From an uncultured Bacillota bacterium (GTDB lineage: Bacteria > Bacillota > Dehalobacteriia > UBA4068 > UBA4997), in NCBI GenBank assembly GCA_948907985.1, contig CAQWMM010000005.1, positions 5 through 64,004 of the forward strand: DNA of 64,000 nt. The letters are read 5' to 3'. Within the stretch, counting starts at the first letter, position 1; each line of letters opens with the position of its first letter. Below are positions 21,959 to 61,673 of this stretch, in pieces. The notes beneath the pieces were generated by a model, which did not search any database, was not told the origin of the DNA, and worked only from the letters and a program-made list of their open reading frames with translations. Both the position numbers and the translations under genes were made by a program.

Positions 21959-24900
21959 ATGCCGTTAAAATCCGGTATTAAAAAAGTATTAGTGATTGGC
22001 TCCGGCCCGATTGTGATCGGCCAGGCGGCTGAATTTGATTATGCCGGCACGCAGGCCTGTCGGGCTTTGAAAGAAGACGGCCTGGAGGTGGTGTTGGTTA
22101 ACTCTAATCCGGCTACGATTATGACCGACAGCGCTATGGCCGACAAAATTTATATTGAACCGCTGACACTGCCGGTGTTAAAGCGGATTATCCGCAAGGA
22201 AAAGCCGGACAGTATTCTTTCCACCCTGGGCGGGCAGACCGGCCTGACGCTTTCCATGCAGCTGGCCAAGGAGGGTTTTTTGGCGGCTAACAACGTGCGC
22301 TTGCTGGGCGCTCGGCCAGATACGATTGAGCGTGCCGAGGACCGTCAGCTTTTTAAAGAAACCATGCTGAAAATCGGCCAGCCCTGTATACCCTCGGATA
22401 TTGTTACCAATGTGGAGGATGCGGTTAAACTGGCGGAACGCCTGCAATATCCGGTAATTGTGCGCCCGGCCTTTACGCTGGGTGGCAGCGGCGGCGGTAT
22501 TGTTAACAACGAAGCGGAACTGCGCGAAATTGCCGATAACGGCCTGCGCTTATCGCCGATTCACCAGATTTTGCTGGAAAAATCTGTGGCTGGCTGGAAA
22601 GAGATTGAGTTTGAAGTGATGCGCGATAGCAAGGGCAATAACATCACCATCTGCTCTATGGAAAACTTTGATCCGGTGGGCGTGCATACCGGCGACAGCA
22701 TTGTGATTGCGCCGGCGGTTACGCTGGCTGATAAGGAATACCAGATGCTGCGCACCGCGGCTTTGGATATTATCAACGAGTTGCAGGTGGAGGGCGGTTG
22801 CAACTGCCAGTTTGCACTGAACCCGGATAGTTTTGAATACGCTGTGATTGAGGTTAACCCGCGTGTTTCTCGCTCTTCGGCGCTGGCCTCTAAGGCCACC
22901 GGCTACCCGATTGCCAAGGTGGCCACCAAAATTGCAATCGGCTATACTTTGGACGAGATTAAAAATGCGGTTACCGGCAAAACGGCGGCTGCCTTTGAGC
23001 CGGCGCTGGATTATGTGGTGGTTAAATTCCCCAAGTGGCCGTTTGATAAGTTTGTTTATGCCAAACGCGATTTGGGAACCCAGATGAAAGCCACCGGCGA
23101 GGTTATGGCGATTGGCCTGAATTTTGAGCAGGCCTTGATGAAAGCGGTACGCGGGGCGGAAATCGGCCTGAGCGATTTGAACGCCCACCGGCAGCTGGCA
23201 ATGTCGCCGGAAGAAATCCGCGCTGCCCTGCACAGTTGCACTGACGAGCGGCTGTTTGTGATTTATCAGGCCATTAAGCAGGGCGTGGAGCTGGCCGAGA
23301 TTCATAATATCACTAAGATTGATATGTGGTTTTTGCATAAGCTGGCGAATATTGCCCGTATGGAGGCCGAGCTGCGCCAGGGTTATGACCGCGCTAAGTA
23401 TCTGGCGGCCAAGCGGCTGGGTTTCCCGGATAAGGTGATTGCCGCGCTTTCCGGCCAGCCGGTGGATGAGCCGGCGCGCGCGGTTTATAAAATGGTGGAT
23501 ACCTGCGCGGCGGAGTTTGCGGCGGAAACGCCTTATTTTTACTCCACATATGATGAAGAAAACGAGGCCGCGCTTTTCCTGGCGGAGCGGGAAAATCCCA
23601 AACCAACGATTATGGTGTTAGGCTCCGGCCCGATCCGCATCGGCCAGGGCATTGAATTTGACTATGCCTCGGTGCACTGCGTTTGGGCTTTGCAGCAGGC
23701 CGGTTATGAGGTTGTTATTGTCAACAATAATCCGGAAACGGTTTCCACCGATTTTGATACGGCGGACAGGCTTTATTTTGAACCGCTGACCGAGGAGGAC
23801 GTGAGCAATATTATTGCTACCGAAAAGCCCTATGGCGTGGTGGTGGCCTTTGGTGGCCAGACGGCGATTAAGCTGACCGGTTTTCTGGATAAGCAGGGAG
23901 TGCGGATTTTGGGTACCTCGGCTGACAGTATTGACCGGGCGGAGGATCGTGGCCGCTTTGACGAGTTGCTGACCAAGCTGAATATTCAGCGCCCCAAAGG
24001 CGAAACAGTGAAGACCACCGACGAGGCTTTGGCGGTGGCCGAGCGGATCGGTTATCCGGTTTTGATGCGCCCCTCCTATGTGCTGGGCGGCCAGAATATG
24101 ATTATTGCCTTTACGGAGGCGGATATTCGGGAATATATGGCAATTATCCTGGAGCAGAATGTGGATAATCTGGTGTTGATCGACAAATATCTGCAAGGCG
24201 TGGAGCTGGAAATTGACGCGATCTGTGATGGTGAAGATATCCTGATTCCCGGCATTATGGAACACGTTGAGCGCACCGGCGTACACTCCGGCGATTCGAT
24301 TGCCGTTTATCCCTCCTTTAATATTAACGACGATATGGTGCAGGTGATTATTGAAACCACCCGCAAACTGGCTGTGGAGTTGGAAACCCGCGGCCTGGTG
24401 AATATTCAGTATCTGATTAAAGATAATCAGCTTTATGTGATTGAGGTTAATCCCCGCTCTTCGCGCACCATTCCGTATTTAAGCAAGGTTACCGGCGTGC
24501 CAATGGTGGATTTGGCTACCCGCGCGCTGCTTGGCGAAAAGCTGGCTGATATGGGCTATGGCACCGGGCTTTATCCTACGCCGGTATACTGCGCGGTTAA
24601 GGTGCCGATTTTCTCCTTTGAAAAACTGCTGAATGTGGACAACCAGCTGGGGCCGGAAATGAAGAGCACCGGCGAGGTTCTGGGTATCGGCTCTAATTTT
24701 GAGGAGGCTATTTATAAAGGCCTGGTGGCGGCTGGCTATAATCTGGAGCAAAAGGGCGGCCTGTTCGTTACCGTTAACGACCGCGACAAGGCGGAGATTG
24801 TGCATGTGGTGAAGAAGTTCGCCGATATGGGTTTCGCGATTTACGCCACCGCCGGCACCCGCAAGGTTTTGCAGGACGCCGGTATTGAGGCGGTTTTTGT

Positions 24901-25996
24901 GGAAAAAATTCATGAGGGCGCGGAAAACGCCGTTAAATTGATGGAAGAGGGCAAGCTGAATTATGTAATTTCCACCTCGGCCAAGGGGCGCAACCCGCAA
25001 AAAGACAGCGTCATCACCCGGCGTAAGGCGGTTGAGCGGGGCATTCCCTGCCTGACCTCGATTGATACGGCTAACGTGCTGGCCGACAGTCTGCATAGCC
25101 TGTATACCCAGGAAAGTATTGAGCTGGTGGATATTAACAACCTGCGGCGCGAACTGATTAAGCTGCCTTTTACCAAAATGCAGAGCTGCGGCAATGATTA
25201 CATTTATTTTAACTGCCTGGAGCGCCAGTTGGACAATCCTGCCGGGCTGGCGGTGCGTTTGTGCCGCCGCAACCGTGGTATCGGCGGCGACGGTGTGGCG
25301 ATGATCTGCCCGTCGGACAAGGCGGACGTTTATGTTAAAGTTTACAATGTTGACGGCACTAACGGCGGTATCGGCGGCAACGCTATCCGCTGCGTGGGCA
25401 AGTATCTTTATGATAACGATATTGTGCATAAAGATGAAATCAGCATTGAAACTGATTACGGTATCAAACGTCTGAAACTGATTAAGCGCAACGGCAAGGT
25501 TTGGGGGGCCTCGGTTTTGATGGGCAAACCCCAGCTGACGCCGGCGGCGCTGCCAATGCTGGCCGCAGGCGAGGATTTTATCAATAAACCGATTGAGGTT
25601 TTGGGCAAGATTTATCTGGCGACCTGCCTTTCGGTGGGCAACCCGCATATGGTGATTTTCACCGATGATTTGGAGGCTGTGCAGCTGGAAAAAATTGGCT
25701 ATCATTTTGAACACCATGAATGGTTCCCGGAGCGGGTGAACGTGGAGTTTGTGAAAGTGTTCAGCCGGGACATTCTCTATATGCGTGTTTGGGAGCGGGG
25801 TAACGGTTATACCAACGCCTGTGGCACCGGCTCCTGCGCGGCGGTGGTGGCGGCGGTTTTGAACGGCTATTGTGATAACGGCCGGGAAATTACCGTTAAA
25901 CAGCCCGGCGGCGATTTGATCATCAGCTATGACGGCGAGAACATCAGTATGACCGGCAGCGCGGAAAAGCTGTTTGAGGGTGTTGTCGAAATATAA
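21959..25996 (+). CDS. carB: Carbamoyl-phosphate synthase large subunit fused in frame to a C-terminal DapF-like (diaminopimelate epimerase fold) domain
   Basis: 1345 aa. Residues about 1-1070 are canonical CarB (two ATP-grasp halves, oligomerisation domain, MGS-like domain ending ...ESIELVDINNL). It continues without a stop into FTKMQSCGNDYIYF...ACGTGSCAA (DapF motifs). Confidence 0.85.
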   Translation: MPLKSGIKKVLVIGSGPIVIGQAAEFDYAGTQACRALKEDGLEVVLVNSNPATIMTDSAMADKIYIEPLTLPVLKRIIRKEKPDSILSTLGGQTGLTLSMQLAKEGFLAANNVRLLGARPDTIERAEDRQLFKETMLKIGQPCIPSDIVTNVEDAVKLAERLQYPVIVRPAFTLGGSGGGIVNNEAELREIADNGLRLSPIHQILLEKSVAGWKEIEFEVMRDSKGNNITICSMENFDPVGVHTGDSIVIAPAVTLADKEYQMLRTAALDIINELQVEGGCNCQFALNPDSFEYAVIEVNPRVSRSSALASKATGYPIAKVATKIAIGYTLDEIKNAVTGKTAAAFEPALDYVVVKFPKWPFDKFVYAKRDLGTQMKATGEVMAIGLNFEQALMKAVRGAEIGLSDLNAHRQLAMSPEEIRAALHSCTDERLFVIYQAIKQGVELAEIHNITKIDMWFLHKLANIARMEAELRQGYDRAKYLAAKRLGFPDKVIAALSGQPVDEPARAVYKMVDTCAAEFAAETPYFYSTYDEENEAALFLAERENPKPTIMVLGSGPIRIGQGIEFDYASVHCVWALQQAGYEVVIVNNNPETVSTDFDTADRLYFEPLTEEDVSNIIATEKPYGVVVAFGGQTAIKLTGFLDKQGVRILGTSADSIDRAEDRGRFDELLTKLNIQRPKGETVKTTDEALAVAERIGYPVLMRPSYVLGGQNMIIAFTEADIREYMAIILEQNVDNLVLIDKYLQGVELEIDAICDGEDILIPGIMEHVERTGVHSGDSIAVYPSFNINDDMVQVIIETTRKLAVELETRGLVNIQYLIKDNQLYVIEVNPRSSRTIPYLSKVTGVPMVDLATRALLGEKLADMGYGTGLYPTPVYCAVKVPIFSFEKLLNVDNQLGPEMKSTGEVLGIGSNFEEAIYKGLVAAGYNLEQKGGLFVTVNDRDKAEIVHVVKKFADMGFAIYATAGTRKVLQDAGIEAVFVEKIHEGAENAVKLMEEGKLNYVISTSAKGRNPQKDSVITRRKAVERGIPCLTSIDTANVLADSLHSLYTQESIELVDINNLRRELIKLPFTKMQSCGNDYIYFNCLERQLDNPAGLAVRLCRRNRGIGGDGVAMICPSDKADVYVKVYNVDGTNGGIGGNAIRCVGKYLYDNDIVHKDEISIETDYGIKRLKLIKRNGKVWGASVLMGKPQLTPAALPMLAAGEDFINKPIEVLGKIYLATCLSVGNPHMVIFTDDLEAVQLEKIGYHFEHHEWFPERVNVEFVKVFSRDILYMRVWERGNGYTNACGTGSCAAVVAAVLNGYCDNGREITVKQPGGDLIISYDGENISMTGSAEKLFEGVVEI

Positions 25997-26118
25997 CCTA
26001 AAAATTTTAGAAAAAAATAAGCTAAAAAATAACAGAAAACATTTTAGCACGGCAAGTGTAATATTAATAGAAGAAAAAATTTAAGGCAAAAGAATTTGCA
26101 ATTAAGGTGGGGTTATTG

Positions 26119-26619
26119 ATGATAGAAAAGCCGGCAGAGATTGACTTGCGGCCACTGGAGCCTGTTCTGGCGGAGTATGCCGCCAAACCGGGCTCTCTGA
26201 TTACAATTTTGCAGCAGACGCAGGATATTTATGGTTATCTGCCCAAAGCGGCGCTGGCGGAAATCAGCCGGGCGGTGGGCGCAACGCCGGCCAAGGTGTT
26301 GGGCGTGGCCTCGTTTTACACCCAGTTTCGGCTGGAGCCGGTGGGGCGTTATCTGATTATGCTCTGCCAGGGAACGGCCTGCCATGTTAACGGCTCGGAA
26401 AGTATCAGCGCGATTATCAGCGAGGAGTTGGGCATTGCCGACGGCCAGACGACGGCGGACGGGCTTTTCAGCCTGAAGCACGTCGCCTGTTTGGGCTGCT
26501 GCTCTTTGGCCCCGGCCATGATGATTAACGGCGAGGTTTACGGTAATTTGACTGCCGATTCAGTCCGCAAGGTTCTGCGCGGCCTGCGTGATTCGGCTGT
26601 GTCGGAGGAGGAAAAATAA
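26119..26619 (+). CDS. NuoE/HydC-like [2Fe-2S] thioredoxin-fold subunit (StnA-like)
   Basis: CQGTACHVNGS....CLGCCSLAP cysteine pattern of NuoE-family 24-kDa subunits. Confidence 0.85.
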   Translation: MIEKPAEIDLRPLEPVLAEYAAKPGSLITILQQTQDIYGYLPKAALAEISRAVGATPAKVLGVASFYTQFRLEPVGRYLIMLCQGTACHVNGSESISAIISEELGIADGQTTADGLFSLKHVACLGCCSLAPAMMINGEVYGNLTADSVRKVLRGLRDSAVSEEEK

Positions 26620-28380
26620 ATGGCAATACGCGTGAAAATTGGTTTGGGCAGCTGTGGTATGGCAGCCGGCGCCCGACAGACGCAGACCGCTTTGGACGAG
26701 GCTCTGACGGCGGCAGGCTCGGATATTCGCAGTGAGCGCACCGGCTGTATCGGCCTGTGTTTTGCCGAGCCGCTGGTAGAGGTGGTTGACGAGGCGGCGG
26801 GACAGAGCTGGTTTTATGGCCGGGTGGACGCGGCGGCGGCGGCCAAAATTGTGGACGGCCATATTTTGGGCGGTCAGCCGCAGACTGATCTGCTGCTGAC
26901 TGATGAGGAACTGCATTTTTTACGCAGTCAGCACCGGGTGGCTCTGCGCAACTGCGGCGTAATTGATCCGGAAAATATCGACCACTATATTGAGCGGGGC
27001 GGCTATCAGGCTTTGCGCAAGGCGGTTGTGGAACTGGAGCCGGAAAAGATAATTGAGATTGTTAAAACCTCCGGCCTGCGGGGCCGGGGCGGGGCCGGGT
27101 TCCCCACCTGGTTTAAGTGGGACGCCTGCCGTAAAGCCGAGGGCGACGTGAAATATGTGATCTGTAATGCGGACGAGGGCGACCCCGGCGCGTTTATGGA
27201 CCGCAGTGTTTTAGAGAGCGACCCGCACAGCGTTTTGGAGGGCATGGCGATTGCCGCGCGGGCGATTGGCAGCAGCCAGGGCGTAATTTATGTGCGCGCT
27301 GAATATCCGTTGAGTATTCACCGGCTGGAGCTGGCGATGCGGGCGGCCAGAGAACGCGGCTTTTTGGGCCAAAATATCTTTGGCAGCGGCTGGGATTTTG
27401 ATATTTACATCAAGGCCGGCGCGGGCGCTTTCGTCTGCGGCGAGGAAACGGCGCTGCTGGCCTCGCTGGAGGGTGAGCGCGGCATGCCGCGGCTGAAGCC
27501 GCCTTTCCCGGCGCAAAAAGGTTTTTGGCAACGCCCCAGCAACATCAATAACGTGGAAACTTTTGCCAATGTGGCCTGGATTATCAATAACGGCGGAGAG
27601 GCCTTTGCCGCTATGGGAACGGCAACCAGCAAAGGCACCAAGGTTTTTGCGCTGGCCGGTAAAATTAAGCGCGGCGGCCTGGTGGAGGTGCCAATGGGTA
27701 TGACTCTGCGCGAGGTGATTTTTGACATTGGCGGCGGCGTTAAAGGCGGCGGCCAGTTTAAGGCGGTGCAGATGGGCGGCCCCTCCGGCGGCTGTATCCC
27801 GGCCAGCCTGCTGGATACGCCGGTGGATTATGAAAGCATTAGCCAAACCGGGGCGATTATGGGCAGCGGCGGTATGATTATTATGGACGACAGCACTTGT
27901 ATGGTAGATATGGCGCGGTTCTTTTTGGACTTTACGCAAAAGGAAAGCTGTGGCAAGTGTATTCATTGCCGGATTGGCACCAAACGAATGCTGGAAATTT
28001 TGGAGCGTATCACCAAAGGCGAGGGGCAGCCGGGCGATGTGGAGCTTTTGCAGGAGCTGGGGCGGCAGATTCAGGCTGGCTCGCTCTGCGGATTAGGCGC
28101 GTCGGCCCCCAACCCGGCGCTTAGCACAATTCGCTATTTTGCCGACGAGTATCGGGCGCATATTGAAGAGCATAAATGCCCCAGCCATAGCTGCCGGCCC
28201 TTGCTGCAATATCGTATTAAGCCGGATAAGTGCCGGGGCTGTTCGCTTTGCGCCCGCAAATGCCCGGTAGGGGCGATCAGCGGCGAACTGCGCGAGGTTT
28301 TTGTCATTGATATGGATAAATGTATTAAATGCGGCAACTGCGCTGCAACCTGCCGTTTTGGCGCGGTGGAAACAGTATAA
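26620..28380 (+). CDS. NuoF/HydB-like NADH-binding FMN/Fe-S subunit with extra N-terminal [2Fe-2S] and C-terminal 2x[4Fe-4S] domains (StnB-like)
   Basis: GRGGAGFPT (FMN/NADH site); CGKCIHCR (N3 cluster); CRGCSLCARKCP and CIKCGNCAATC ferredoxin motifs. Confidence 0.85.
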   Translation: MAIRVKIGLGSCGMAAGARQTQTALDEALTAAGSDIRSERTGCIGLCFAEPLVEVVDEAAGQSWFYGRVDAAAAAKIVDGHILGGQPQTDLLLTDEELHFLRSQHRVALRNCGVIDPENIDHYIERGGYQALRKAVVELEPEKIIEIVKTSGLRGRGGAGFPTWFKWDACRKAEGDVKYVICNADEGDPGAFMDRSVLESDPHSVLEGMAIAARAIGSSQGVIYVRAEYPLSIHRLELAMRAARERGFLGQNIFGSGWDFDIYIKAGAGAFVCGEETALLASLEGERGMPRLKPPFPAQKGFWQRPSNINNVETFANVAWIINNGGEAFAAMGTATSKGTKVFALAGKIKRGGLVEVPMGMTLREVIFDIGGGVKGGGQFKAVQMGGPSGGCIPASLLDTPVDYESISQTGAIMGSGGMIIMDDSTCMVDMARFFLDFTQKESCGKCIHCRIGTKRMLEILERITKGEGQPGDVELLQELGRQIQAGSLCGLGASAPNPALSTIRYFADEYRAHIEEHKCPSHSCRPLLQYRIKPDKCRGCSLCARKCPVGAISGELREVFVIDMDKCIKCGNCAATCRFGAVETV

Positions 28381-28394
28381 GGGAGGCTGGATTA

Positions 28395-31300
28395 ATGGCA
28401 GAAAATAAAAAAATGTTTACATTAACCATCGACGGCCAAAAGCTGACGGCCACTGCCGGCGAAACCATTTTGGCGGTGGCGCGCCGGGCCGGGATTGAGA
28501 TCCCCACCCTGTGCCATAACGACAGTCTGAAGCCTTACGGCGCCTGCGGCCTTTGCGTGGTGGCTATGGAGGGCAGCCCGCGGCTGTTCCGCGCCTGTGC
28601 GACGGAGGCGGCTGAGGGGCAGGTTATTTATACCGATACCGAGGCGGTGGTGAGCGCCCGCCGTACTGCTTTGGAGCTGCTGCTTTCCAATCATAAGGGG
28701 GATTGCGCCGCCCCCTGCCAGCTGGCTTGCCCGGCCGGAACCGATTGTCAGGGCTATGTTGGGCTGATCGCCAATAATCGCTTTGCCGAGGCCTTGCAGC
28801 TGATTAAAGAGAGTTATCCGATTCCGGCCTCTTTGGGGCGGGTTTGCCCGCACCCCTGCGAAACGGCTTGCCGCCGCGCCAAGGTGGAGCAGCCAATTAG
28901 TCTGGCACGGCTGAAACAATTTGTCGCCGACGTGGATTTGAACACCGGCAGCCCTTATCTGCCGGCTAAAAAGCCGGCCACCGGTAAGCGTGTGGCGGTG
29001 GTGGGCGGCGGCCCCGCCGGTTTGACGCTGGCCTATTTTATGGCGCTGGCCGGTCATCAGGCGGTGATTTTTGAGATGATGCCCCAAGCCGGCGGTATGC
29101 TGCGCTATGGCATACCGGAATATCGCCTGCCTAAAAATATTCTGGATATGGAAATTGCCCTGATTGAAAAGTTGGGCGTAGAAATTCGCACTAAATGTAT
29201 GCTGGGGCGGGATGTGCAGTTTGCGGATTTGCAGCGGGATTTTGACGCTGTTTATCTGGCCAACGGCGCCTGGCAGAGCGCCGGCCTGCGCTGCGAGGGC
29301 GAAACCCTGCCCGGCGTGGTGGGCGGCATTGACTTTTTGGGCAATGTGGCCCTGGGCAAGCTAAGCAAATTGGGCGGCCGCGTGGCGGTGGTGGGCGGCG
29401 GCAACACCGCTATGGACGCCTGCCGTACGGCGGTACGCCTGGGCGCGCAGGAGGTTTATGTGCTTTACCGGCGCACCGAGGCGGAAATGCCGGCGGAGGA
29501 TGTGGAAATTCGCGAGGCCCGCGAGGAGGGCGTGCAGTTTAAGTTTCTGGTAGCGCCCACCCGGATTATTGGCCATGCCCAGCATGGCCGCGCGGTGGCG
29601 ATTGAACTGCAAAAAATGGAACTGGGCGAGCCGGACGAAAGCGGCCGCCGCAAACCGGTGCCGGTGCCGGGCGGTATTGAAACCCTGCCGGTGGATCTGG
29701 TGATTGCGGCGATCGGCCAAAAGGTGGTGCCGCTTAACCTGGGTGAGGGCGCGCCGGAGCTGCAATATACCAAATGGCAGACGATTGCCGCCGACGAACG
29801 CACCTACGCGACCTCTATCCCCGGGGTTTTTGCCGGCGGCGACGCGATTAACGACGGCCCGGGTATTGCGGTGCAGGCGGTGGCGCATGCCAAACAGGCC
29901 GCCAAGGTTATCGACGAATATTTGCGCACTGGGCAGGTTGACGCGGCTTTAAATGCAGAAAAATATTTGCATAAAAACGGCGAACCGGACGCGGAATTTT
30001 TCAAAACCAAATCGCGGGTGCAGCGGGTTTCAATCAGTTATCTGCACCCGGAATACCGCAAGAGCAATTTTATGGAAGTGGCCAAGGGCTTTGAGCCAAT
30101 GGAGGCTATGTATGAGGCCAGCCGCTGTTTGGAGTGCGGCTGCGGCGATGTTTTTGAATGCCGTCTGCTGCATTATGCCCGACAATATAATGTACAGCCG
30201 CAAAAATACGCGGGTGAGATTAATATAACGCCTAAGGATGACAGCCACCGTTTTATTGTGCGGGATATGAGCAAGTGTATTTTGTGCGGTAACTGCGTGC
30301 GCGCCTGCGAGGAAGTGGCCGGCGTGGGAGCGCTGGGCTTGGATGGGCGCGGTTTCCCCACGGTGGTGGGCGCTGATTTTGGTCTGCCGCTGGGCGATAG
30401 CAGCTGCCGGGGCTGCGGCCAGTGCGTGGCGGTGTGCCCCACCGGCGCTTTGCAGGAACGCCAGCCCTGGGAAAAGCCGGTGCCGCTGGATTGTGAAACA
30501 CAGAGCGGCGTTTGTAACTTCTGCGGCAATGGCTGTAACTTGCAAATTAAACATAAAGGCGACTATCTGGTTAAGGTAGAGCCAGCCGAGGGCGGCAGAC
30601 TTTGCCAGACCGGGCGTTTTGGCTATCCGCACGCCATGACGGCCACCGGCGCGCCGACCGCCGGTATTGATTTTGGGCAGGGCATGACGGAGGCCCGGGC
30701 GGCGGACGCTCTGCGCGCGGCGGCCGCGGCGATTAATTCGCTGCGCGAAACCGACGGCACCGACACCATCGGCGTGGCGGTGGGCGATCAGCTGACCAGT
30801 GAAGAACTGTTCCTGTTGAAGTTTATGGCCGAAGAAGTTATTGGGACGGAATATATTTATGCGCCTAATGCGGAAAGCGGCGGCCTGGGCGACGTCTGGG
30901 GTTTTGACGCATCTACGGCCACCGTGGCCGATGTGGAGGCGGCGGATTTGCTGCTGGTCTTTGGCGATGAACTGGCAGAAAATTACCCGATTTTGGGTTC
31001 TCGTCTGCAAAAGGGCGTTAAAGCCGGACAAAAACTGCTGTTGGTGGCCGATAAACCGGGCGTACTGGCGGACTTTGCGGCCAGTCTGTATCAGCCGCAG
31101 GGTAATTTGCAGCTTTTAAGCCAACTGGCGCAGGGCGGAGAGAGCGCGGCGGCGCAGGAAATTTTGGCGGCTTTGGCCGGGGCGAAACGCCCGGTTTTGC
31201 TGCTGGACCGAAGCCGGCTGACGCGTGAGGCGGCGCAGTGTGTGGCGGCGCTGGCGGCTGGGGGCGGCAAACAGCTGCCGGTTTTGCAGTTGCAGGCCAG

Positions 31301-31889
31301 AGCCAACAGCCAGACGGTGCGCGCTTTGGGAATCCAGCGGAATATGCGGCAGCTGGCGGCGGATATTGCTGCCGGCAAGCTGAAAGGTCTGTTGCTTTTC
31401 GGTGTGGATTTGCCGGCGGAATTGGCCGAAAATATGGAATTTGTGCTGGAGGCCGACGCTGGTTATGGCCGGGCTTATCCTTATGCCTCGGTGCTGCTGC
31501 CGCTGGCCGGGTTCGGCGCGGTAACCGGCAGCTACGTCAATTTTGAGGGCCGTTTGCAAAAGGTTCAGGCGGCGGTGCGTCCCAATTTGGGCGAAGAGAA
31601 CTGGCAGCTTTTGGCCGGCCTGGTCAACGCCTTAAATCGCAATTACAAATTTACGGATTTACAGCAAATTCGCGACGGTTTGGCGGCAGCCTGCCCGGAA
31701 TATGCGGCGGCCTTGTCAGCAGCTGCCGGCGCGGCGGTTTATTTGAGCGCGGACGGTAAATTGCCCCAAACCCCGGCAGTTTTGCCGGCGGAACTTAAGC
31801 TTGCCGATAATTTGGCGGCACTGCCTTTTGCCCGGGAATATGAGCAGGCCAGCACGGCGGTAAAAAGCTGGCAAAAAATGAAGGTGTGA
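28395..31889 (+). CDS. NuoG/HydA-N-terminus-like Fe-S subunit with inserted GltD/NfnB-like NADPH:FAD oxidoreductase domain and degenerate FDH/molybdopterin-like C-terminal domain (StnC-like); no H-cluster
   Basis: N-terminal plant-type 2Fe-2S (CHNDSLKPYGACGLCVV). GltD-like Cys cluster plus two Rossmann motifs (VAVVGGGPAGL, VAVVGGGNTAMD). CILCGNCVRAC and CRGCGQCVAVCP ferredoxin motifs. CNFCGNGCNL molybdopterin-oxidoreductase Fe4S4 motif. Truncated MoCo-like domain without catalytic Cys/Sec. Confidence 0.8.
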   Translation: MAENKKMFTLTIDGQKLTATAGETILAVARRAGIEIPTLCHNDSLKPYGACGLCVVAMEGSPRLFRACATEAAEGQVIYTDTEAVVSARRTALELLLSNHKGDCAAPCQLACPAGTDCQGYVGLIANNRFAEALQLIKESYPIPASLGRVCPHPCETACRRAKVEQPISLARLKQFVADVDLNTGSPYLPAKKPATGKRVAVVGGGPAGLTLAYFMALAGHQAVIFEMMPQAGGMLRYGIPEYRLPKNILDMEIALIEKLGVEIRTKCMLGRDVQFADLQRDFDAVYLANGAWQSAGLRCEGETLPGVVGGIDFLGNVALGKLSKLGGRVAVVGGGNTAMDACRTAVRLGAQEVYVLYRRTEAEMPAEDVEIREAREEGVQFKFLVAPTRIIGHAQHGRAVAIELQKMELGEPDESGRRKPVPVPGGIETLPVDLVIAAIGQKVVPLNLGEGAPELQYTKWQTIAADERTYATSIPGVFAGGDAINDGPGIAVQAVAHAKQAAKVIDEYLRTGQVDAALNAEKYLHKNGEPDAEFFKTKSRVQRVSISYLHPEYRKSNFMEVAKGFEPMEAMYEASRCLECGCGDVFECRLLHYARQYNVQPQKYAGEINITPKDDSHRFIVRDMSKCILCGNCVRACEEVAGVGALGLDGRGFPTVVGADFGLPLGDSSCRGCGQCVAVCPTGALQERQPWEKPVPLDCETQSGVCNFCGNGCNLQIKHKGDYLVKVEPAEGGRLCQTGRFGYPHAMTATGAPTAGIDFGQGMTEARAADALRAAAAAINSLRETDGTDTIGVAVGDQLTSEELFLLKFMAEEVIGTEYIYAPNAESGGLGDVWGFDASTATVADVEAADLLLVFGDELAENYPILGSRLQKGVKAGQKLLLVADKPGVLADFAASLYQPQGNLQLLSQLAQGGESAAAQEILAALAGAKRPVLLLDRSRLTREAAQCVAALAAGGGKQLPVLQLQARANSQTVRALGIQRNMRQLAADIAAGKLKGLLLFGVDLPAELAENMEFVLEADAGYGRAYPYASVLLPLAGFGAVTGSYVNFEGRLQKVQAAVRPNLGEENWQLLAGLVNALNRNYKFTDLQQIRDGLAAACPEYAAALSAAAGAAVYLSADGKLPQTPAVLPAELKLADNLAALPFAREYEQASTAVKSWQKMKV

Positions 31890-31891
31890 TT

Positions 31892-32818
31892 ATGCGGCAA
31901 AATTTTGATGCGGCCGCTTATGTGCAGGCGCGGCAAAAGCTGATTAACAACGCGCTGGCGGCGGAAATGGAGAGGGCGGGCCGGACGGCCCCGCCCGGCG
32001 CTGGTGTGGAGCGGCTGCTGGCGGCTATGGAATACAGCCTGCTGGCCGGTGGCAAAAGGCTGCGCCCGTTGCTGTTTCTGGCGGCGCTGGAAAGCATCGG
32101 CCAGGTGGAGGAGAACGAACTGGCGGCTTATCTGCCTTTCGCCTGCGGCATTGAAATGCTGCACACCTATTCTTTGATTCATGACGACCTGCCGGCGATG
32201 GATAACGACGCTCTGCGGCGGGGGCGGCCCAGCTGCCACAAAGCTTTTGACGAGGCGACGGCAATTTTGGCCGGCGACGGCCTGTTGACGCATTGTTTTT
32301 GCTGCCTGCTGGCGGCCGGCGCGCCGGCGGAGCGGCTTGTTCAGGCCGGGCGGTATTTCGCCTGGCAGGCCGGCATTGGCGGTATGGTGAGCGGCCAGGC
32401 GCTGGATATTGATGCGGAAACGGCTGCGGAGCCGCTGAATTTGGCCGGTTTGCGCAAAATTCACGCCAGTAAAACCGGCGCGCTGTTGGAGTCTGCCATA
32501 GTTTGCGGCGGTATTCTGGCGGGAGCTGATGAGGCGCAAAAGCAGGCATTGAAAGAATTTGGCCGGCAGTTTGGTTTGGCTTTCCAGATAACCGACGATA
32601 TTTTGGATGTCGTGGGGGATGAAGCTAAACTGGGCAAACCGGTGGGCAGCGATGCGGCCAACAATAAAACCACTTATGTTTCGCTGTTGGGCCTGGCGGG
32701 AGCCGGGCAGGCGGCGCAGGCGGCTATGACAGCGGCCCGGGATGCTTTGGAGCCGTTGGGCGAGTCGGGGCGGCTGCTTGGGGCTTTGACGGATTATTAT
32801 TGCAGGCGGGATAACTGA
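31892..32818 (+). CDS. ispA: Short-chain polyprenyl diphosphate synthase (FPP/GGPP synthase)
   Basis: LIHDDLPAMDNDALRRGRP (first DDxxD/FARM) and ITDDILD (second Asp-rich motif). Start overlaps the stnC stop (gtgTGAttATG). Confidence 0.9.
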   Translation: MRQNFDAAAYVQARQKLINNALAAEMERAGRTAPPGAGVERLLAAMEYSLLAGGKRLRPLLFLAALESIGQVEENELAAYLPFACGIEMLHTYSLIHDDLPAMDNDALRRGRPSCHKAFDEATAILAGDGLLTHCFCCLLAAGAPAERLVQAGRYFAWQAGIGGMVSGQALDIDAETAAEPLNLAGLRKIHASKTGALLESAIVCGGILAGADEAQKQALKEFGRQFGLAFQITDDILDVVGDEAKLGKPVGSDAANNKTTYVSLLGLAGAGQAAQAAMTAARDALEPLGESGRLLGALTDYYCRRDN

Positions 32819-32839: not shown

Positions 32840-33187
32840 ATGCCTTATATCAGAATGGCAACGTCTCAACAACTGACTGCCGCGCAAAAGGACGATTTTA
32901 AAAGCGGGCTGGCGGAGATTATCGGCTTGATACCGGGCAAAACTGAGGCGGCCTTGATGGTAGAAGTCGACGACGGCATAACGATGTATTTTAAGGGTGA
33001 AAAGCGCGCTTTGGCCTATTTGGACGCTAAATTTTCCGGCGATACGGAGTTTGAACATAAAAAACTGTTCACCGAGGCTGCCTGCGCTTTGACGCAAAAG
33101 GTCTGCGGTCTGCCGCCGGACGCGGTTTATCTGACTTACAGCGTCTTTAATGAATGGGGAACCGGCGGAACCTTAAAGGCGCGTTAA
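32840..33187 (+). CDS. MIF/tautomerase-superfamily protein (Pro-1 tautomerase)
   Basis: 115 aa; Met-Pro N-terminus (MPYIRM); C-terminal VYLTYSVFNEWGTGG resembles the MIF ...YINYYDMNAANVGWNG region. Confidence 0.6.
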   Translation: MPYIRMATSQQLTAAQKDDFKSGLAEIIGLIPGKTEAALMVEVDDGITMYFKGEKRALAYLDAKFSGDTEFEHKKLFTEAACALTQKVCGLPPDAVYLTYSVFNEWGTGGTLKAR

Positions 33188-53415: not shown

Positions 53416-53693
53416 GCTGTAAAAATTTTAAAATTTATTTAAATAGAAGTTTTAAAGCAGGCGCTGATTAATGGCGTCTGCTTTTATCCGCTGGCCGGTG
53501 TTATTATCAGGTTGGGCGGCAAAATTTTTTGCGAAAATTGCCTTGGAAAATCTTCAACTGACTTGCTTTTTTTCACAGGATAAAGCCAGCTTGCTTTGGT
53601 TATGGTATAGATACAGGCGTTGACGACTGGGACGCCTGTGTTAAATGCCAGATGGGGAGGTGTTACAAAAGCAAGCTCAAAGGAGGTGTTAGT

Positions 53694-54755
53694 TTGTTTC
53701 AGACAAATTTTGGCAAAAAATTTGTGTGTTCCCTGCGTTCAAGCATAGTTTTTACGGCTTTGCTGGTTTCTATGCTTATTTCTGGTTTATTAACGCCGCA
53801 AATTTCCTGGGCCTATGACGTGCTGGCGGGCGGCCAATCTCTGGGCATCGTTTTAAAAAGCGAGGGCGCGATTGTGGTGGGCTTTACGCCGGTGCAGACG
53901 GCTGACGGCCGGGAATTATATCCGGCCAAAGAGGCCGGCGTGGAAATTGAGGATATGCTGATTGCTATTAACGACCAGCAGGTGAGTTATAATCAGGAAG
54001 TGGCCGATTTGATCGACGAACTGGGGCGCAGCGGCCAGCCTGTTGAGTTGACTCTGCGGCGCGGCGGCGCGCTGAAAAAGCTGGCGGTGGAACCGGCCCT
54101 GTGCGCGGAAAGCGGTACCTGGCGTATCGGCCTTTATATCCGCGACGCTAACGCCGGCATTGGCACGCTGACCTTTTATGACCCCGCCACCGGCGCTTAT
54201 GGCGCGCTGGGGCACCGGGTGGAAGATAACAGCGAAGAGGGCGCGGATGTGTTGGGCCGCGTGCTGGCGGCAAGGGTTCAGTATGTGCAGAACAGCGCGC
54301 CCGGCGAACCGGGCGAAAAAGTGGGCGTTTTTGACAGCGAAAGCCTGAACGGTTCAATTAACAAAAACTGTGATCTGGGTATTTACGGCTTGTTGGAACA
54401 GCCGGTGAGCAATTCGCTTTATCCGCAGCTTTTACCGGTGGCCGACGCTTCCGAGGTTAAACCTGGGCCTGCCACTATGCTGACGGTTTTGGAGGGCGAA
54501 AAGCTGGAAGAGTTCGCCATAGAAATTACCAGGGTTTCGCCCCAAAAACACGCCGCTGATAAGGGCATGGTGATTAAAATTACTGACGAGCGTCTTTTGG
54601 CCGAGGCCGGCGGTATCGTGCAGGGAATGTCCGGCAGCCCGATTATTCAGAACGGAAAACTGGTTGGGGCGGTTACGCACGTTTTTGTGAATGACGCCAG
54701 CTCCGGATACGCCTGTTTTGCGGAATGGATGCTGGAGGAGGCCCAAAGTTTGTAG
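53694..54755 (+). CDS. spoIVB: Stage IV sporulation protein B (SpoIVB, peptidase S55, PDZ + serine protease)
   Basis: GIGTLTFYDPATGAYGALGH hallmark; PDZ segment; C-terminal GMSGSPI serine motif. TTG 6 nt after AAAGGAGGTG. Confidence 0.9.
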   Translation: MFQTNFGKKFVCSLRSSIVFTALLVSMLISGLLTPQISWAYDVLAGGQSLGIVLKSEGAIVVGFTPVQTADGRELYPAKEAGVEIEDMLIAINDQQVSYNQEVADLIDELGRSGQPVELTLRRGGALKKLAVEPALCAESGTWRIGLYIRDANAGIGTLTFYDPATGAYGALGHRVEDNSEEGADVLGRVLAARVQYVQNSAPGEPGEKVGVFDSESLNGSINKNCDLGIYGLLEQPVSNSLYPQLLPVADASEVKPGPATMLTVLEGEKLEEFAIEITRVSPQKHAADKGMVIKITDERLLAEAGGIVQGMSGSPIIQNGKLVGAVTHVFVNDASSGYACFAEWMLEEAQSL

Positions 54756-55224: not shown

Positions 55225-56007
55225 ATGATGGGCGAAAATGGCAAGAAAAAAATTAATGTAATGCTGGCGGATGACAACCGGAGTTTCTGCGCTGAACTTA
55301 AGGAATTTTGGGATATGCAGGAAAACATAAACGTCTGCGGTATTATGAACAATGGCGAACAAGTGCTGGAACAGCTGGAAACCCTGAGGCCGGATATTAT
55401 TGTTTTGGATGTGGTTATGCCTAAAGTGGACGGCTTCGGCGTGCTGGAGGCTATCCGGGAACTGCCGGAGCAGCAGCGCCCGCAGGTGGTGGTGCTGTCG
55501 GGCCTGATGCAGGACGATATTATGCGCAGGGCTATTGAACTGGGCGCAAAATATTATATGATGAAACCAATTGATTTTCAGGTTTTAACCAACCGCATAC
55601 TTTCGCTGATGTCGGCCCCGGTTAAGGCAACCACCGGGTTCTCGCCGATGGTGCGCAACCTGGATATCGAGGTTACCAGGGTTATTCAGCAAATGGGCGT
55701 GCCGGCGCACGTTAAAGGCTATCAGTATGTGCGTGATGCGATCATTTTAGTGGTGGAGGAAATGAACCTGCTGGGCGCTGTTACCAAAGAACTTTACCCG
55801 CTGATTGCTGAAAAATACAACACCACCGCCAGCCGGGTGGAGCGGGCGATTCGCCATGCAATAGAACTGGCCTGGGACCGGGGCAATGTGGATATGATGA
55901 ACAAATTCTTTGGTTATACGGTGAACATGGAGCGCGGCAAGCCGACCAACAGCGAATTTATTGCCATGGTGGCCGATCGCCTGCGGATTGGGGAAAAAGT
56001 AATCTAG
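55225..56007 (+). CDS. spo0A: Sporulation master regulator Spo0A
   Basis: Receiver domain (VMLADDNR...DVVMPKVDG). C-terminal Spo0A_C with [20 protein letters not shown] and [15 protein letters not shown], near-identical to the Bacillus consensus. Confidence 0.97.
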
Positions 56008-59640: not shown

Positions 59641-59795
59641 CCTAAGGGCTGACCCGATTTAAGGATCAGTTCTTTGTGCTTTTATTATACTAGAAAAGCT
59701 GAAAAAAGTCAAGATGAATTTTAAGAGTGGCCAAACGAATAGTTTTAAGCCTATCTGTTCTCACCCTCTCCGTCATATCTTCCCTAACGGTCAGA

Positions 59796-59888
59796 TATGC
59801 CACCTCCCCCTCTGGGGGAGGCAAGTTTTCCTGCTTATAAGATGAATATTTAAACCTGGCTCCCCCTTTGGGGGAGCTGTCAGCGGCG
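59796..59888. repeat. Two near-identical GC-rich palindromic hairpins (cCTCCCCC-tYt-GGGGGAGg) about 50 nt apart in an AT-rich spacer
   Basis: cacctccccctctgggggaggc (about 59800-59822) and ggctccccctttgggggagc (about 59858-59878). A third GGGGG run at about 59911. Confidence 0.6.
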
Positions 59889-59963
59889 ACTAATAGGGAG
59901 CCGATGACTGAGGGGGCTGGAAGAAGATAAAACAATGCATTTTGTCCAATCCTCAAAAAATAA

Positions 59964-60000
59964 CCCTCTACCTGCGGTTTTGCAGATAGAGGGCTTTTTT
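59964..60000. terminator. Bidirectional rho-independent terminator
   Basis: ccctctacctgcggttttgcagatagaggg flanked by a T-run on + and an A-run (a T-run on –). Confidence 0.7.
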
Positions 60001-60206
60001 CAACTTTCAACAAGTTCGACGTTTTCTAAAGCATAACGTAATGCCATACACATTACCTCGTTTCGAGAATAGCCGGTTCGGTTTGCCAGATCCTCATAAG
60101 AGTCTAGCAAGGCCTTTTCTATTCTTATGCTTGTATTGACAGGCTCGTATATACTTTTCCCTAATCGTTTAGGTTTAACAATAAATTTTTCTTCCATTGT
60201 CATCAC
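60000..60206 (-). CDS. Ribbon-helix-helix (CopG/Arc-like) DNA-binding protein
   Basis: 68 aa; KPKRLGKSIYEPVNTSIRIEKALLDSYEDLANRTGYSRNEVMCMALRYALENVE shows the beta-strand then two-helix RHH pattern. Confidence 0.65.
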   Translation of the reverse strand: MMTMEEKFIVKPKRLGKSIYEPVNTSIRIEKALLDSYEDLANRTGYSRNEVMCMALRYALENVELVES

Positions 60207-61665: not shown

Positions 61666-61673
61666 AAATAAAA

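What the first reader, a model, noticed from the sequence alone, without database searches (positions are those of the whole stretch)
26107..31889. Three-gene NuoE/NuoF/NuoG+GltD cluster matching the Sporomusa-type Nfn (StnABC) transhydrogenase
The third protein (1164 aa) carries a HydA/NuoG-type 2Fe-2S N-terminus, an inserted GltD/NfnB-like NADPH-FAD module with two Rossmann motifs, ferredoxin-type 4Fe-4S sites, and a degenerate FDH-like Fe4S4/MoCo remnant. It has no H-cluster motifs (no TSCCP/MPCxxK) and no catalytic Cys/Sec. Together with the HydC-like and HydB-like subunits this is the architecture reported for the electron-bifurcating NADH/Fd:NADP oxidoreductase of Sporomusa. That enzyme is recently described and rarely annotated. 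This copy is followed by a translationally coupled ispA.
Basis: partly seen in the sequence, partly recalled or inferred. Interest (0 to 1): 0.65.

Follow-up and report, generated by a model that had tools for sequence, protein, structure and literature searches.

The report
Ordinary StnABC/NfnABC electron-bifurcating transhydrogenase operon

Summary
Window 26119-31889 (+) carries three tightly packed genes for a NuoE/HydC-like protein (166 aa), a NuoF/HydB-like protein (586 aa) and a 1164-aa NuoG-like protein with an inserted GltD/NfnL-like FAD/NADPH module.

- **Best matches.** For all three, the best solved-structure match is a characterised electron-bifurcating transhydrogenase: S. ovata StnABC for StnA and StnC, and C. 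saccharolyticus NfnABC, nearly tied with StnB, for StnB. Identity to S. ovata is 62.5 % (StnA), 66 % (StnB) and about 50 % over StnC residues 8-891.
- **Fold.** An AlphaFold model of the large subunit superposes full length on both structures (TM 0.86-0.88).
- **Residues.** Every Fe-S ligand is conserved, including the unusual Lys and His ligands. So are the Arg near FAD, the GxGxxA/YRR NADPH signature and the BfuB zinc-site His.
- **Excluded.** There is no H-cluster domain. The FDH Cys/Sec-His position reads Ala-Pro and the pterin cap domain is missing. No hydrogenase or FDH gene was found among the ORFs scanned across the 64-kb window.

ispA starts 2 nt after stnC, and this linkage is conserved in related Peptococcaceae/Bacillota MAGs.

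Verdict: interpretation supported. This is a new, unannotated member of a known, widespread family, and interest is low.

The parts
26054..26079 (+). Conserved AT-rich box (AAGTGTAATATTAATAGAAGAAAAAA) about 40 nt upstream of the stnA start. It is a candidate extended -10 promoter for the operon.
   Evidence: The box aligns almost identically in the window, L003 and L002 inside an otherwise divergent intergenic region. The consensus promoter scan did not call it. It is a candidate only.
26119..26619 (+). stnA (nfnC/bfuC): NuoE/HydC-like subunit of 166 aa with one [2Fe-2S] cluster (A1/C1). Ligands are Cys83, Cys88, Cys124 and Cys128.
   Evidence: Pfam 2Fe-2S_thioredx, E 1e-50. Best PDB hit is 8oh5_A, E 2e-60, 62.5 % identity over 152 aa. 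The CxxxxC...CxxxC pattern is present. Gene callers give 166 aa. The ORF opens at GTG 26107.
26620..28380 (+). stnB (nfnB/bfuB): NuoF/HydB-like subunit of 586 aa. It carries the N-terminal thioredoxin-like B5 site (Cys12, Cys43, Cys47), the FMN/NADH site (GRGGAGFPTWFKW; Glu186/Asp188), B1 [4Fe-4S] (Cys444/447/450/490), the Zn 'B2' hinge site (Cys427, His514, Cys520, Cys525) and a C-terminal 2x[4Fe-4S] ferredoxin-binding domain (Cys538-548, Cys568-578).
   Evidence: Pfam. PDB 9bov_B E 3.6e-270 and 8oh5_B E 1e-269, both full length. Identity is 66 % to S. ovata and 65.5 % to Csac. Residues. Site definitions come from PMC10482914, PMC12018979 and PMC9304861. The ATG abuts the stnA stop, and a GGAGGAGG ribosome-binding site lies inside the stnA 3' end.
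28395..31889 (+). stnC (nfnA/bfuA): 1164-aa NADPH-binding electron-input subunit.
   Evidence: PDB 8oh5_C E 3.4e-284 and 9bov_A E 1.7e-280, both over most of the length. AlphaFold2 model pLDDT 87.6, pTM 0.83. Foldseek TM 0.88 and 0.86 to 9bov_A and 8oh5_C. A GGGAGG ribosome-binding site lies 8 nt before the ATG.
28410..28640 (+). StnC residues 6-82: HydA/NuoG-type [2Fe-2S] domain. Ligands are Cys40, Cys51, Cys54 and Cys68.
   Evidence: Pfam Fer2_4, E 1.5e-19. The Cys are conserved with S. ovata and invariant in 118 homologues.
28701..29939 (+). StnC residues 103-515: inserted GltD/NfnL-like module. It starts with H100xxxC104xxxC108xxxC112P and continues with Cys118, Cys151/155/159 and Lys174 (the Lys ligand of the cluster next to FAD). 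It also holds the FAD motif GGGPAG (204), Arg244, the NADPH motif GGGNTA (334) and YRR (358-360).
   Evidence: Pfam Fer4_20 and Pyr_redox_2. 55 % identity to S. ovata over this module. Lys174 = Sov K170, Arg244 = Sov R239, Cys118 = Sov C114. All are invariant or nearly so in 118 homologues. Functional roles are from PMC10482914.
30126..30452 (+). StnC residues 578-686: CxxCxCx5C motif (Cys578/581/583/589) followed by a ferredoxin-type 2x[4Fe-4S] domain (Cys628-638, Cys671-681).
   Evidence: The Cys are conserved with S. ovata and invariant in the family.
30492..31748 (+). StnC residues 700-1118: Molybdop_Fe4S4 cluster (Cys707/710/714/737) followed by a degenerate, catalytically dead FdhF-like domain. 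In S. ovata this domain mediates tetramerisation.
   Evidence: Weak Pfam Molybdop_Fe4S4 and Molybdopterin hits and no Molydop_binding domain. The FDH 'RVCHSPTG' segment aligns to 'YAPNAESG', so Cys-His becomes Ala823-Pro824. Identity to S. ovata is only 26-34 % here, but the fold is confidently predicted and superposes.
31892..32818 (+). ispA (farnesyl-diphosphate synthase, 308 aa). It starts 2 nt after the stnC stop and is probably co-transcribed. It is not a subunit of the enzyme.
   Evidence: NCBIfam FPPsyn 327 bits (cut-off 275) and Pfam polyprenyl_synt. Junction sequence. Gene call of 308 aa. The stnC-ispA order is conserved in L002, L003, L007, L009 and L010 but not in Ca. Formimonas warabiya.

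Best explanation
The locus encodes an StnABC/NfnABC (Nfn-type Bfu) complex. [quoted passage not shown]

Mechanism, inferred by homology to the S. ovata, C. saccharolyticus and T. sibiricus enzymes:
1. NADP(H) binds the GltD/NfnL-like module of the large subunit, and a hydride is exchanged with a non-bifurcating FAD.
2. Single electrons travel along a wire in StnC. The wire runs from the Cys3-Lys [4Fe-4S] next to FAD, through further [4Fe-4S] clusters and the N-terminal [2Fe-2S], to the B1 [4Fe-4S] of StnB.
3. FMN in StnB is the bifurcation site. It acts together with B1 and the [2Fe-2S] of StnA.
4. One electron pair goes to or comes from NAD(H) stacked on FMN.
5. The low-potential pair is handed by the mobile thioredoxin-like domain of StnA to the two C-terminal [4Fe-4S] clusters of StnB, where ferredoxin docks.

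Overall reaction: NADH + Fd(red) + 2 NADP+ <-> NAD+ + Fd(ox) + 2 NADPH.

The FdhF-like C-terminal domain is a non-catalytic scaffold. In this uncultured, spore-forming Peptococcaceae-like bacterium the likely physiological direction is NADPH production for biosynthesis or CO2 reduction. That direction is inferred, not shown.

Shown here: gene order, domain architecture, fold, and conservation of every cofactor ligand and of the functionally tested residues. Inferred: activity, stoichiometry, oligomeric state and direction.
For: - **Solved-structure matches.** For all three proteins the best hits are the characterised complexes 8OH5 (StnABC) and 9BOV (Csac NfnABC), then 9N5U (Tsi NfnABC). These rank above the HydABC hydrogenases, FDHs and complex I.
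- **Identity.** 62.5 %, 66 % and about 50 % over StnC residues 8-891 to S. ovata StnA, StnB and StnC.
- **Fold.** The AlphaFold2 model has pLDDT 87.6, and Foldseek gives full-length TM 0.88 to 9bov_A and 0.86 to 8oh5_C. The next non-Nfn-Bfu hits cover only the GltD module or reach TM below 0.5.
- **StnC ligands.** All 27 Cys ligands plus His100 and Lys174 are conserved with S. ovata. Across 118 full-length homologues they are invariant, except Cys118 (116 of 118). Arg244 (= R239) and Lys174 (= K170), both shown by mutagenesis to be needed for activity (PMC10482914), are invariant.
- **NADPH signature.** GxGxxA plus YRR are invariant.
- **StnB.** It has the Bfu-specific His (His514) with Cys427/520/525, the B1 cluster, Glu186/Asp188 at the FMN site and the C-terminal 2x[4Fe-4S] ferredoxin-reducing domain (criteria from PMC9304861, PMC12018979).
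- **StnA.** It has the [2Fe-2S] cluster that is essential for bifurcation (PMC10482914).
- **Operon structure.** Gaps of 0, 14 and 2 nt, with ribosome-binding sites in front of each gene.
- **Lineage context.** An StnABC-like cluster was reported in 7 of 10 Dehalobacteriia genomes. [quoted passage not shown]
Against: - No biochemical data exist for this protein or for any close relative above 50 % identity. Activity is inferred from homologues at 40-66 % identity.
- The C-terminal FdhF-like domain is only 26-34 % identical to S. ovata. Tetramer formation is therefore not assured.
- The StnB N-terminal (B5) site has only three Cys. Published structures disagree on whether it holds [2Fe-2S] (S. 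ovata) or Zn (Csac, Tsi), and its occupant here is unknown.
- The rest of the genome is not in hand. Ferredoxin, a Wood-Ljungdahl pathway and presence or absence of NfnSL cannot be checked, so the physiological direction is a guess.
Confidence: 0.9

Rival explanations
1. The complex is a non-bifurcating NAD(P)H-linked oxidoreductase with the same architecture but another physiological acceptor. Examples are an NADPH-dependent sulfur/polysulfide reductase, as T. litoralis NsoABC was first described, or an SfrAB-like NADPH:Fe(III)/dye reductase. In this reading the NuoEF-like subunits merely add an NADH entry point.
For: The NsoABC-type architecture is the same (PMC7483475). Isolated StnC alone has high NADPH:viologen activity (PMC10482914). 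One source names a homologue (P0050) 'NADPH-Fe(3+) oxidoreductase subunit beta'.
Against: Nso-type complexes were reinterpreted as possible Nfn (PMC7483475), and the T. sibiricus homologue was shown to bifurcate (PMC9304861, PMC12018979). The window proteins are closer to the two bacterial enzymes with proven bifurcation than to any other solved protein. StnB keeps every Bfu-specific bifurcation feature: His514, the Zn hinge and the C-terminal ferredoxin domain. SfrAB has no NuoE/F partners and its GltD- and NuoG-like parts are separate subunits.
Confidence: 0.05
2. The three proteins are the diaphorase/electron-transfer module of a hydrogenase or formate dehydrogenase (HydABC- or Fdh-Bfu-like). 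The catalytic site would be either in the large subunit or in a partner encoded elsewhere.
For: [quoted passage not shown] The large subunit gives weak Molybdopterin and Molybdop_Fe4S4 hits. Sources often name homologues 'formate dehydrogenase major subunit'.
Against: There is no H-cluster domain or motifs. The FDH Cys/Sec-His position is Ala-Pro, and the same column is mostly Ser-Phe in 118 homologues. The Molydop_binding cap domain is absent. The large subunit carries its own complete FAD/NADPH site. No hydrogenase, FDH or maturation gene was found among the ORFs scanned across the 64-kb window. The same compact stnABC-ispA neighbourhood, without such partners, recurs in relatives.
Confidence: 0.03
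3. The genes are intact but the complex is a degenerate paralogue that does not assemble or function as a transhydrogenase, for example because the diverged FdhF-like domain no longer supports assembly.
For: The C-terminal domain is only 26-34 % identical to S. ovata. In S. ovata, deleting this domain or its clusters abolished assembly (PMC10482914).
Against: All cluster ligands in that domain are kept. The domain is predicted with high confidence (pLDDT mostly 85-97) and superposes on the solved structures. The genes are conserved at 64-92 % identity, with synteny, across many MAGs, which implies purifying selection.
Confidence: 0.02

Closest known systems
Sporomusa ovata StnABC (Sporomusa-type Nfn; PDB 8OH5/8OH9; PMC7483475, PMC10482914)
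   Same: - Same three-gene set and the same domain order in each subunit.
- Identity of 62.5 % (StnA), 66 % (StnB) and about 50 % over StnC residues 8-891.
- All Fe-S ligands are kept, as are the Lys ligand (K170 = K174), R239 = R244 and C114 = C118.
- The three-Cys B5 site in StnB, the Zn hinge site and the dead FdhF-like domain all match.
- The StnC fold superposes with TM 0.86.
   Different: - The FdhF-like domain is strongly diverged (26-34 % identity) and StnC is 8 residues shorter (1164 aa against 1172).
- The host is an uncultured Peptococcaceae-like spore-former, not a Negativicute acetogen.
- Here the operon is followed directly by ispA.
- Activity has not been tested.
Caldicellulosiruptor saccharolyticus NfnABC (PDB 9BOV/9BP5; PMC11829005)
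   Same: It is the best structural match to the large subunit (TM 0.88) and the best sequence match to the B subunit (E 3.6e-270, 65.5 % identity). Cofactor sites are the same. Its proposed role, making NADPH for biosynthesis in a fermenter, may fit a non-acetogenic host best.
   Different: Csac NfnB has a fourth Cys (C22) at the B5 site, which binds Zn. The window protein has Ala or Thr there, like S. ovata.
Thermococcus sibiricus NfnABC / T. litoralis NsoABC (PDB 9N5U; PMC12018979, PMC9304861)
   Same: Same Nfn-Bfu type and the same BfuBC core. E-values are 1.6e-181 (A), 5.2e-239 (B) and about 1e-54 (C).
   Different: The archaeal large subunit is about 200 residues shorter and lacks the Cys for one cluster in the truncated C-terminal domain. 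The window protein has the full bacterial-type domain and all clusters.
Electron-bifurcating [FeFe]-hydrogenase HydABC (T. maritima, T. kivui, A. woodii; PDB 7P5H, 7Q4V, 8A6T)
   Same: It has a homologous bifurcating BfuBC core (HydB/HydC) and the N-terminal Fe-S part of HydA.
   Different: The H-cluster domain is replaced here by an inserted NADPH/FAD module and a dead FdhF-like domain, so the third substrate is NADP(H), not H2.
NfnSL (NfnAB) transhydrogenase (PDB 5JCA, 4YLF)
   Same: It catalyses the same overall reaction. The GltD-like module is homologous to NfnL (E 4.7e-91, TM to target 0.79).
   Different: It is an unrelated two-subunit enzyme in which the FAD of NfnL itself bifurcates. 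Here a Lys replaces the Glu cluster ligand, no NfnS is present, and bifurcation is assigned to FMN in the B subunit (PMC10482914).

Membership tests
StnABC / NfnABC (Nfn-type, Type 1 Bfu family) | Three adjacent co-oriented genes for a NuoE-like (BfuC), a NuoF-like (BfuB) and a GltD-inserted NuoG-like (BfuA) subunit | tested here: met
   ORFs at 26119-26619, 26620-28380 and 28395-31889, with gaps of 0 and 14 nt.
StnABC / NfnABC (Nfn-type, Type 1 Bfu family) | Large-subunit architecture and fold: [2Fe-2S] N-terminus, inserted NfnL/GltD-like FAD/NADPH module, Fe-S dicluster, Fe4S4, then FdhF-like domain | tested here: met
   Pfam and NCBIfam. phmmer alignments to 8oh5_C and 9bov_A over most of the length. 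AF2 model with Foldseek TM 0.88 and 0.86.
StnABC / NfnABC (Nfn-type, Type 1 Bfu family) | Ligands for six [4Fe-4S] and one [2Fe-2S] in the large subunit, including the strictly conserved Lys (Sov K170) and the HxxxCxxxCxxxCP and CxxCxCx5C motifs | tested here: met
   All are conserved with S. ovata. In 118 homologues they are invariant, except C118, which is kept in 116 of 118 as described in PMC10482914.
StnABC / NfnABC (Nfn-type, Type 1 Bfu family) | FAD motif, Arg equivalent to Sov R239, and an NADPH-type second Rossmann motif (GxGxxA) | tested here: met
   GGGPAG at 204, R244, GGGNTA at 334 and YRR at 358-360, all invariant in the family alignment.
StnABC / NfnABC (Nfn-type, Type 1 Bfu family) | Bifurcating BfuB core: FMN/NADH site, B1 [4Fe-4S], Cys3-His hinge (B2/Zn) site with the Bfu-specific His, and a C-terminal 2x[4Fe-4S] ferredoxin domain | tested here: met
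   GRGGAGFPTWFKW; E186/D188; C444/447/450/490; C427, H514, C520, C525; two CxxCxxCxxxC motifs. Criteria are from PMC9304861 and PMC12018979.
StnABC / NfnABC (Nfn-type, Type 1 Bfu family) | BfuC/StnA [2Fe-2S] cluster in a thioredoxin-like C-terminal domain | tested here: met
   C83, C88, C124 and C128. 62.5 % identity to 8oh5_A.
StnABC / NfnABC (Nfn-type, Type 1 Bfu family) | [quoted passage not shown] | not testable with these tools
   This needs anoxic enzyme assays. No data exist for this protein.
StnABC / NfnABC (Nfn-type, Type 1 Bfu family) | Tetramer of ABC heterotrimers mediated by the FdhF-like domain | not tested
   Only the monomer was modelled. The domain is 26-34 % identical to S. 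ovata.
[FeFe]-hydrogenase HydABC | H-cluster domain (Fe_hyd_lg_C) with TSCCP / MPCxxK motifs in the large subunit | tested here: not met
   No Pfam hit to the H-cluster domain. The motifs are absent. The NCBIfam hydrogenase models match only the N-terminal Fe-S part and score far below cut-off.
NAD-dependent / Bfu-type formate dehydrogenase (FdsABG, Fdh-Bfu) | Catalytic Cys/Sec-His, a complete bis-MGD-binding fold including the Molydop_binding cap domain | tested here: not met
   The FDH 'RVCHSPTG' segment aligns to 'YAPNAESG', giving A823-P824. There is no PF01568 hit, and the Molybdopterin hit is weak and partial. TM to FDH alpha subunits is 0.5 or less.
NfnSL (NfnAB) | Two-subunit enzyme: a free-standing NfnL with a Glu-ligated [4Fe-4S], plus an NfnS (FAD/[2Fe-2S]) partner | tested here: not met
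   The NfnL-like module is embedded in a 1164-aa NuoG-like protein. A Lys (K174) occupies the Glu position according to PMC10482914. No NfnS-like gene was found among the ORFs scanned across the window.
SfrAB NADPH:Fe(III) oxidoreductase | Separate SfrA (NuoG-like) and SfrB (GltD-like) subunits with no NuoE/NuoF partners | tested here: not met
   Here the two parts are fused and are preceded by NuoE- and NuoF-like genes. The family description is from PMC7483475.

The most novel reading that the evidence does not exclude
In this Peptococcaceae-like lineage the transhydrogenase operon has captured ispA, and with it a MIF/tautomerase-like gene. The block carB::dapF-stnABC-ispA is conserved down to about 65 % StnC identity. 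The most novel reading is that this linkage is functional. StnABC expression would be tied to isoprenoid (MEP-pathway) biosynthesis, which consumes NADPH at Dxr and low-potential electrons at IspG and IspH. The bifurcating enzyme would then act as a dedicated redox supplier for that pathway rather than a general pool balancer.
Probability: 0.08. Interest if true: 0.35.

Novelty: new member of a known kind. Interest (0 to 1): 0.15.

Why it matters
The value is mainly in annotation. The large subunit is routinely mislabelled as formate dehydrogenase, molybdopterin oxidoreductase or glutamate synthase small subunit. No listed NCBIfam model for the large subunit reaches its cut-off. Metabolic reconstructions of uncultured anaerobes, such as this lineage of uncultured Bacillota known only from MAGs, will therefore miss their NADH/NADPH/ferredoxin coupling site or wrongly infer formate metabolism.

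Recognising the locus as StnABC/NfnABC gives the organism a route to NADPH from NADH plus reduced ferredoxin. It adds nothing mechanistically new to a family that already has three cryo-EM structures.

Tried and rejected
- **Hydrogenase reading.** Searched for the H-cluster domain and motifs; none found.
- **FDH reading.** Aligned the FdhF-like domain to solved FDHs. The catalytic Cys-His is replaced by Ala-Pro and the cap domain is absent.
- **Catalytic partner nearby.** About 50 ORFs across the 64-kb window were scanned with NCBIfam or Pfam. Those that matched a family are housekeeping genes (plsX, rnc, smc, ftsY, rny, carAB, comM, dprA, topA, hslUV, rpsB, tsf, spoIVB, spo0A and others); a few matched nothing. 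No hydrogenase, FDH, CODH or Wood-Ljungdahl gene was seen.
- **Redox regulator (Rex) box upstream.** The pattern TTGTTAAN4TTAACAA with up to 3 mismatches gave 3 hits in the window against 3.1 expected, and none near the operon.
- **Promoter and terminator scan of 25.5-33.5 kb.** It found no promoter-like site in the carB-stnA gap, and terminator-like sites were at the chance level.
- **Rfam scan.** It found only one tRNA and no riboswitch or leader near the operon.
- **Naming the organism.** The exact proteins are in three NCBI MAGs without names. The nearest named relative is Ca. Avidehalobacter gallistercoris at 67 %. Assignment to GTDB class Dehalobacteriia is my guess from names, not tested.
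- **Literature on a CarB-DapF fusion.** The search found nothing relevant.

Full report
**1. Observation**

The region holds three co-oriented ORFs on the + strand: 26107/26119-26619, 26620-28380 and 28329/28395-31889. A fourth follows at 31886/31892-32818. Sequence at the junctions shows ribosome-binding sites in front of ATG 26119 (AAGGTGG), ATG 26620 (GGAGGAGG inside the end of gene 1), ATG 28395 (GGGAGG) and ATG 31892 (AAGGTG inside the last codons of gene 3). The gaps are 0, 14 and 2 nt. Gene callers on identical public contigs give 166, 586, 1164 and 308 aa. The stnA start is better placed at 26119, and ispA starts 2 nt after the stnC stop rather than overlapping it.

**2. Domain content**

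- Gene 1 is a thioredoxin-like [2Fe-2S] NuoE-family protein.
- Gene 2 is a NuoF-family protein with an FMN/NADH domain, the NuoF [4Fe-4S] region and an extra C-terminal 2x[4Fe-4S] ferredoxin domain.
- Gene 3 begins with a HydA/NuoG-type [2Fe-2S] domain. Next comes a complete GltD/NfnL-like module (Fer4_20 and Pyr_redox_2, with GGGPAG at 204 and GGGNTA at 334). A CxxCxCx5C motif follows, then a ferredoxin-type dicluster and a Molybdop_Fe4S4 cluster. It ends in a weak, partial Molybdopterin domain.
- There is no H-cluster domain, no TSCCP or MPCxxK motif and no Molydop_binding cap domain.

**3. Comparison with solved, characterised enzymes**

The best PDB sequence matches to all three proteins are, in order:
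- the S. ovata StnABC complex (8OH5; A 2e-60, B 1e-269, C 3.4e-284);
- the C. saccharolyticus NfnABC complex (9BOV; 9.4e-56, 3.6e-270, 1.7e-280);
- the T. sibiricus NfnABC complex (9N5U).

Bifurcating hydrogenases, NAD-dependent FDHs and complex I come after these. Alignments of StnA and StnB cover nearly the whole proteins; the StnC alignment covers residues 8-1118 for 8OH5 and 8-886 for 9BOV.

Identity to S. ovata, computed from those alignments, is:
- 62.5 % for StnA;
- 66 % for StnB (65.5 % to Csac NfnB);
- 50 % for StnC residues 8-891, made up of 57 % in the [2Fe-2S] domain, 55 % in the GltD-like module, 50 % in the Fe-S region and 34 % in the first part of the FdhF-like domain;
- 26 % in the StnC tail, residues 902-1118.

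An AlphaFold2 model of StnC built on 64 homologues is confident (mean pLDDT 87.6, pTM 0.83). Foldseek places it full length on 9bov_A (TM 0.88) and 8oh5_C (TM 0.86). NfnL and GltD match only the inserted module, and FDH or complex I subunits reach TM 0.5 or less.

**4. Residue-level tests**

The functional residues below are defined in PMC10482914.

*StnC.*
- All cluster ligands are conserved with S. ovata: Cys40/51/54/68; His100, Cys104/108/112; Cys151/155/159; Cys578/581/583/589; Cys628/631/634/638; Cys671/674/677/681; Cys707/710/714/737.
- Lys174 (= K170, the unusual Lys ligand of the cluster next to FAD), Arg244 (= R239) and Cys118 (= C114) are also conserved.
- In a MAFFT alignment of 118 full-length homologues all of these are invariant except Cys118 (116 of 118; Ile or Val in two). 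This is the same pattern the paper reports.
- The GxGxxA and YRR elements of the NADPH site are invariant too.

*StnB.*
- It keeps the FMN loop, Glu186/Asp188 (= E184/D186) and the B1 cluster (Cys444/447/450/490).
- It keeps the Cys3-His hinge site (Cys427, His514, Cys520, Cys525) and both C-terminal ferredoxin motifs.
- The His of the hinge site is described as a marker of bifurcating BfuB proteins (PMC9304861, PMC12018979).
- The N-terminal B5 site has three Cys, as in S. ovata. Csac has a fourth Cys and binds Zn there.

*StnA.* It has the CxxxxC...CxxxC [2Fe-2S] site.

**5.

- H-cluster: absent.
- Catalytic Mo/W site: the FDH segment 'RVCHSPTG' aligns to 'YAPNAESG', so Cys-His becomes Ala823-Pro824. 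The same column is mostly Ser-Phe in the family, and there is no cap domain.
- Catalytic partner nearby: none. ORFs across the whole 64-kb window were scanned. The flanks are carA, a carB-dapF fusion, ispA, a MIF-like gene, an aldo-keto reductase, comM, cell-wall genes, dprA, topA, hslUV, rpsB, tsf, spoIVB and spo0A.

None of the refuting conditions is met.

**6. Mechanism**

By homology, NADP(H) exchanges a hydride with a non-bifurcating FAD in StnC. Single electrons run through the StnC cluster chain to B1 and FMN in StnB. FMN, together with B1 and the StnA [2Fe-2S], splits or merges electron pairs between NAD(H) and the low-potential branch. That branch leads through the mobile StnA domain to the C-terminal clusters of StnB and on to ferredoxin.

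The two structural groups differ in emphasis. One describes a kinetic gate (PMC10482914); the other describes a 'flavobicluster' B1-FMN-C1 (PMC11829005, PMC12018979). They agree on the pathway. The FdhF-like domain is a scaffold, and in S. ovata it is required for tetramer assembly. Activity, stoichiometry, oligomeric state and in vivo direction are inferred for this copy, not shown.

**7. Organism and context**

- The exact StnC protein occurs in three unnamed NCBI MAGs and one Logan assembly.
- The nearest genome-collection relatives (79-86 %) are MAGs labelled Peptococcaceae or Bacillota.
- The nearest named relative is Ca. Avidehalobacter gallistercoris at 67 %, placed in Peptococcaceae by NCBI.
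- The order carA, carB::dapF, stnABC, ispA, then (in most relatives) the MIF-like gene and comM is conserved in L002, L003, L009 and L010. L010 lacks the MIF-like gene.
- It is not conserved in Ca. Formimonas warabiya (46 %), where stnABC sits after nusB/tsaD and before a sigma-54 regulator. The ispA linkage is therefore lineage-specific and probably incidental.
- A short AT-rich box 40-65 nt upstream of stnA is conserved in the three closest loci and may be a promoter.
- A paper on the class Dehalobacteriia already reports an StnABC-like cluster in 7 of 10 genomes. [quoted passage not shown]

**8. Novelty and verdict**

The family was described in 2020 and has since been characterised structurally in three organisms. 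The 120 best listed are nearly all full-length proteins of 1114-1216 aa.

This copy passes every sequence- and structure-based membership test and shows no departure in architecture. It is a new, unannotated member of a known kind. The practical value is in correcting the common mis-annotation as FDH, molybdopterin oxidoreductase or GltD.

Noticed in passing
window 21959-25996 (+): A single 1345-aa ORF fuses a complete carbamoyl-phosphate synthase large subunit (CarB, residues 1-1049, 1495 bits) in frame to a complete diaminopimelate epimerase (DapF, residues 1071-1343, 245 bits). A 1345-aa ORF or gene call occupies the same position in L002, L003, L006, L009 (Ca. Avidehalobacter) and L010, so this is not a sequencing artefact. 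A literature search found no description of such a fusion.
   Followed up: partly
window 32840-33187 (+): A 115-aa ORF directly after ispA has only a weak MIF/tautomerase-superfamily match (Pfam E 1.5e-4, just above the cut-off). A 115-aa gene sits in the same position in L007 and L009, and similar-sized ORFs in L002 and L003. It is absent in L010.
   Followed up: partly
window 26054-26079 (+): The box AAGTGTAATATTAATAGAAGAAAAAA in the carB-stnA spacer is nearly identical in the window, L003 and L002, while the rest of the spacer diverges. It may be an extended -10 promoter or an operator. The consensus promoter scan did not call it.
   Followed up: partly
window 26620-26790 (StnB residues 1-57): The N-terminal thioredoxin-like 'B5' site of StnB has three Cys (12, 43, 47), as in S. 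ovata. C. saccharolyticus NfnB has a fourth Cys and binds Zn there, whereas the S. ovata structure models a [2Fe-2S]. What occupies a three-Cys site is unresolved between the published structures.
   Followed up: partly
window 1-64000: GC skew is positive in every 2-kb bin and almost all credible genes are on the + strand. This is consistent with a leading-strand stretch of a Bacillota chromosome. spoIVB (53652-54755) and spo0A (55225-56007) suggest a spore-former.
   Followed up: no
window 59690-63482: GC content drops to 0.40 at 60-62 kb. Here the strand bias breaks: tRNA-Arg(CCG) lies on the - strand at 61709-61783, and ORFs without any Pfam match lie on the - strand at 62100-62555 and 62568-63482. 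This could be the edge of an insertion next to the tRNA gene.
   Followed up: no
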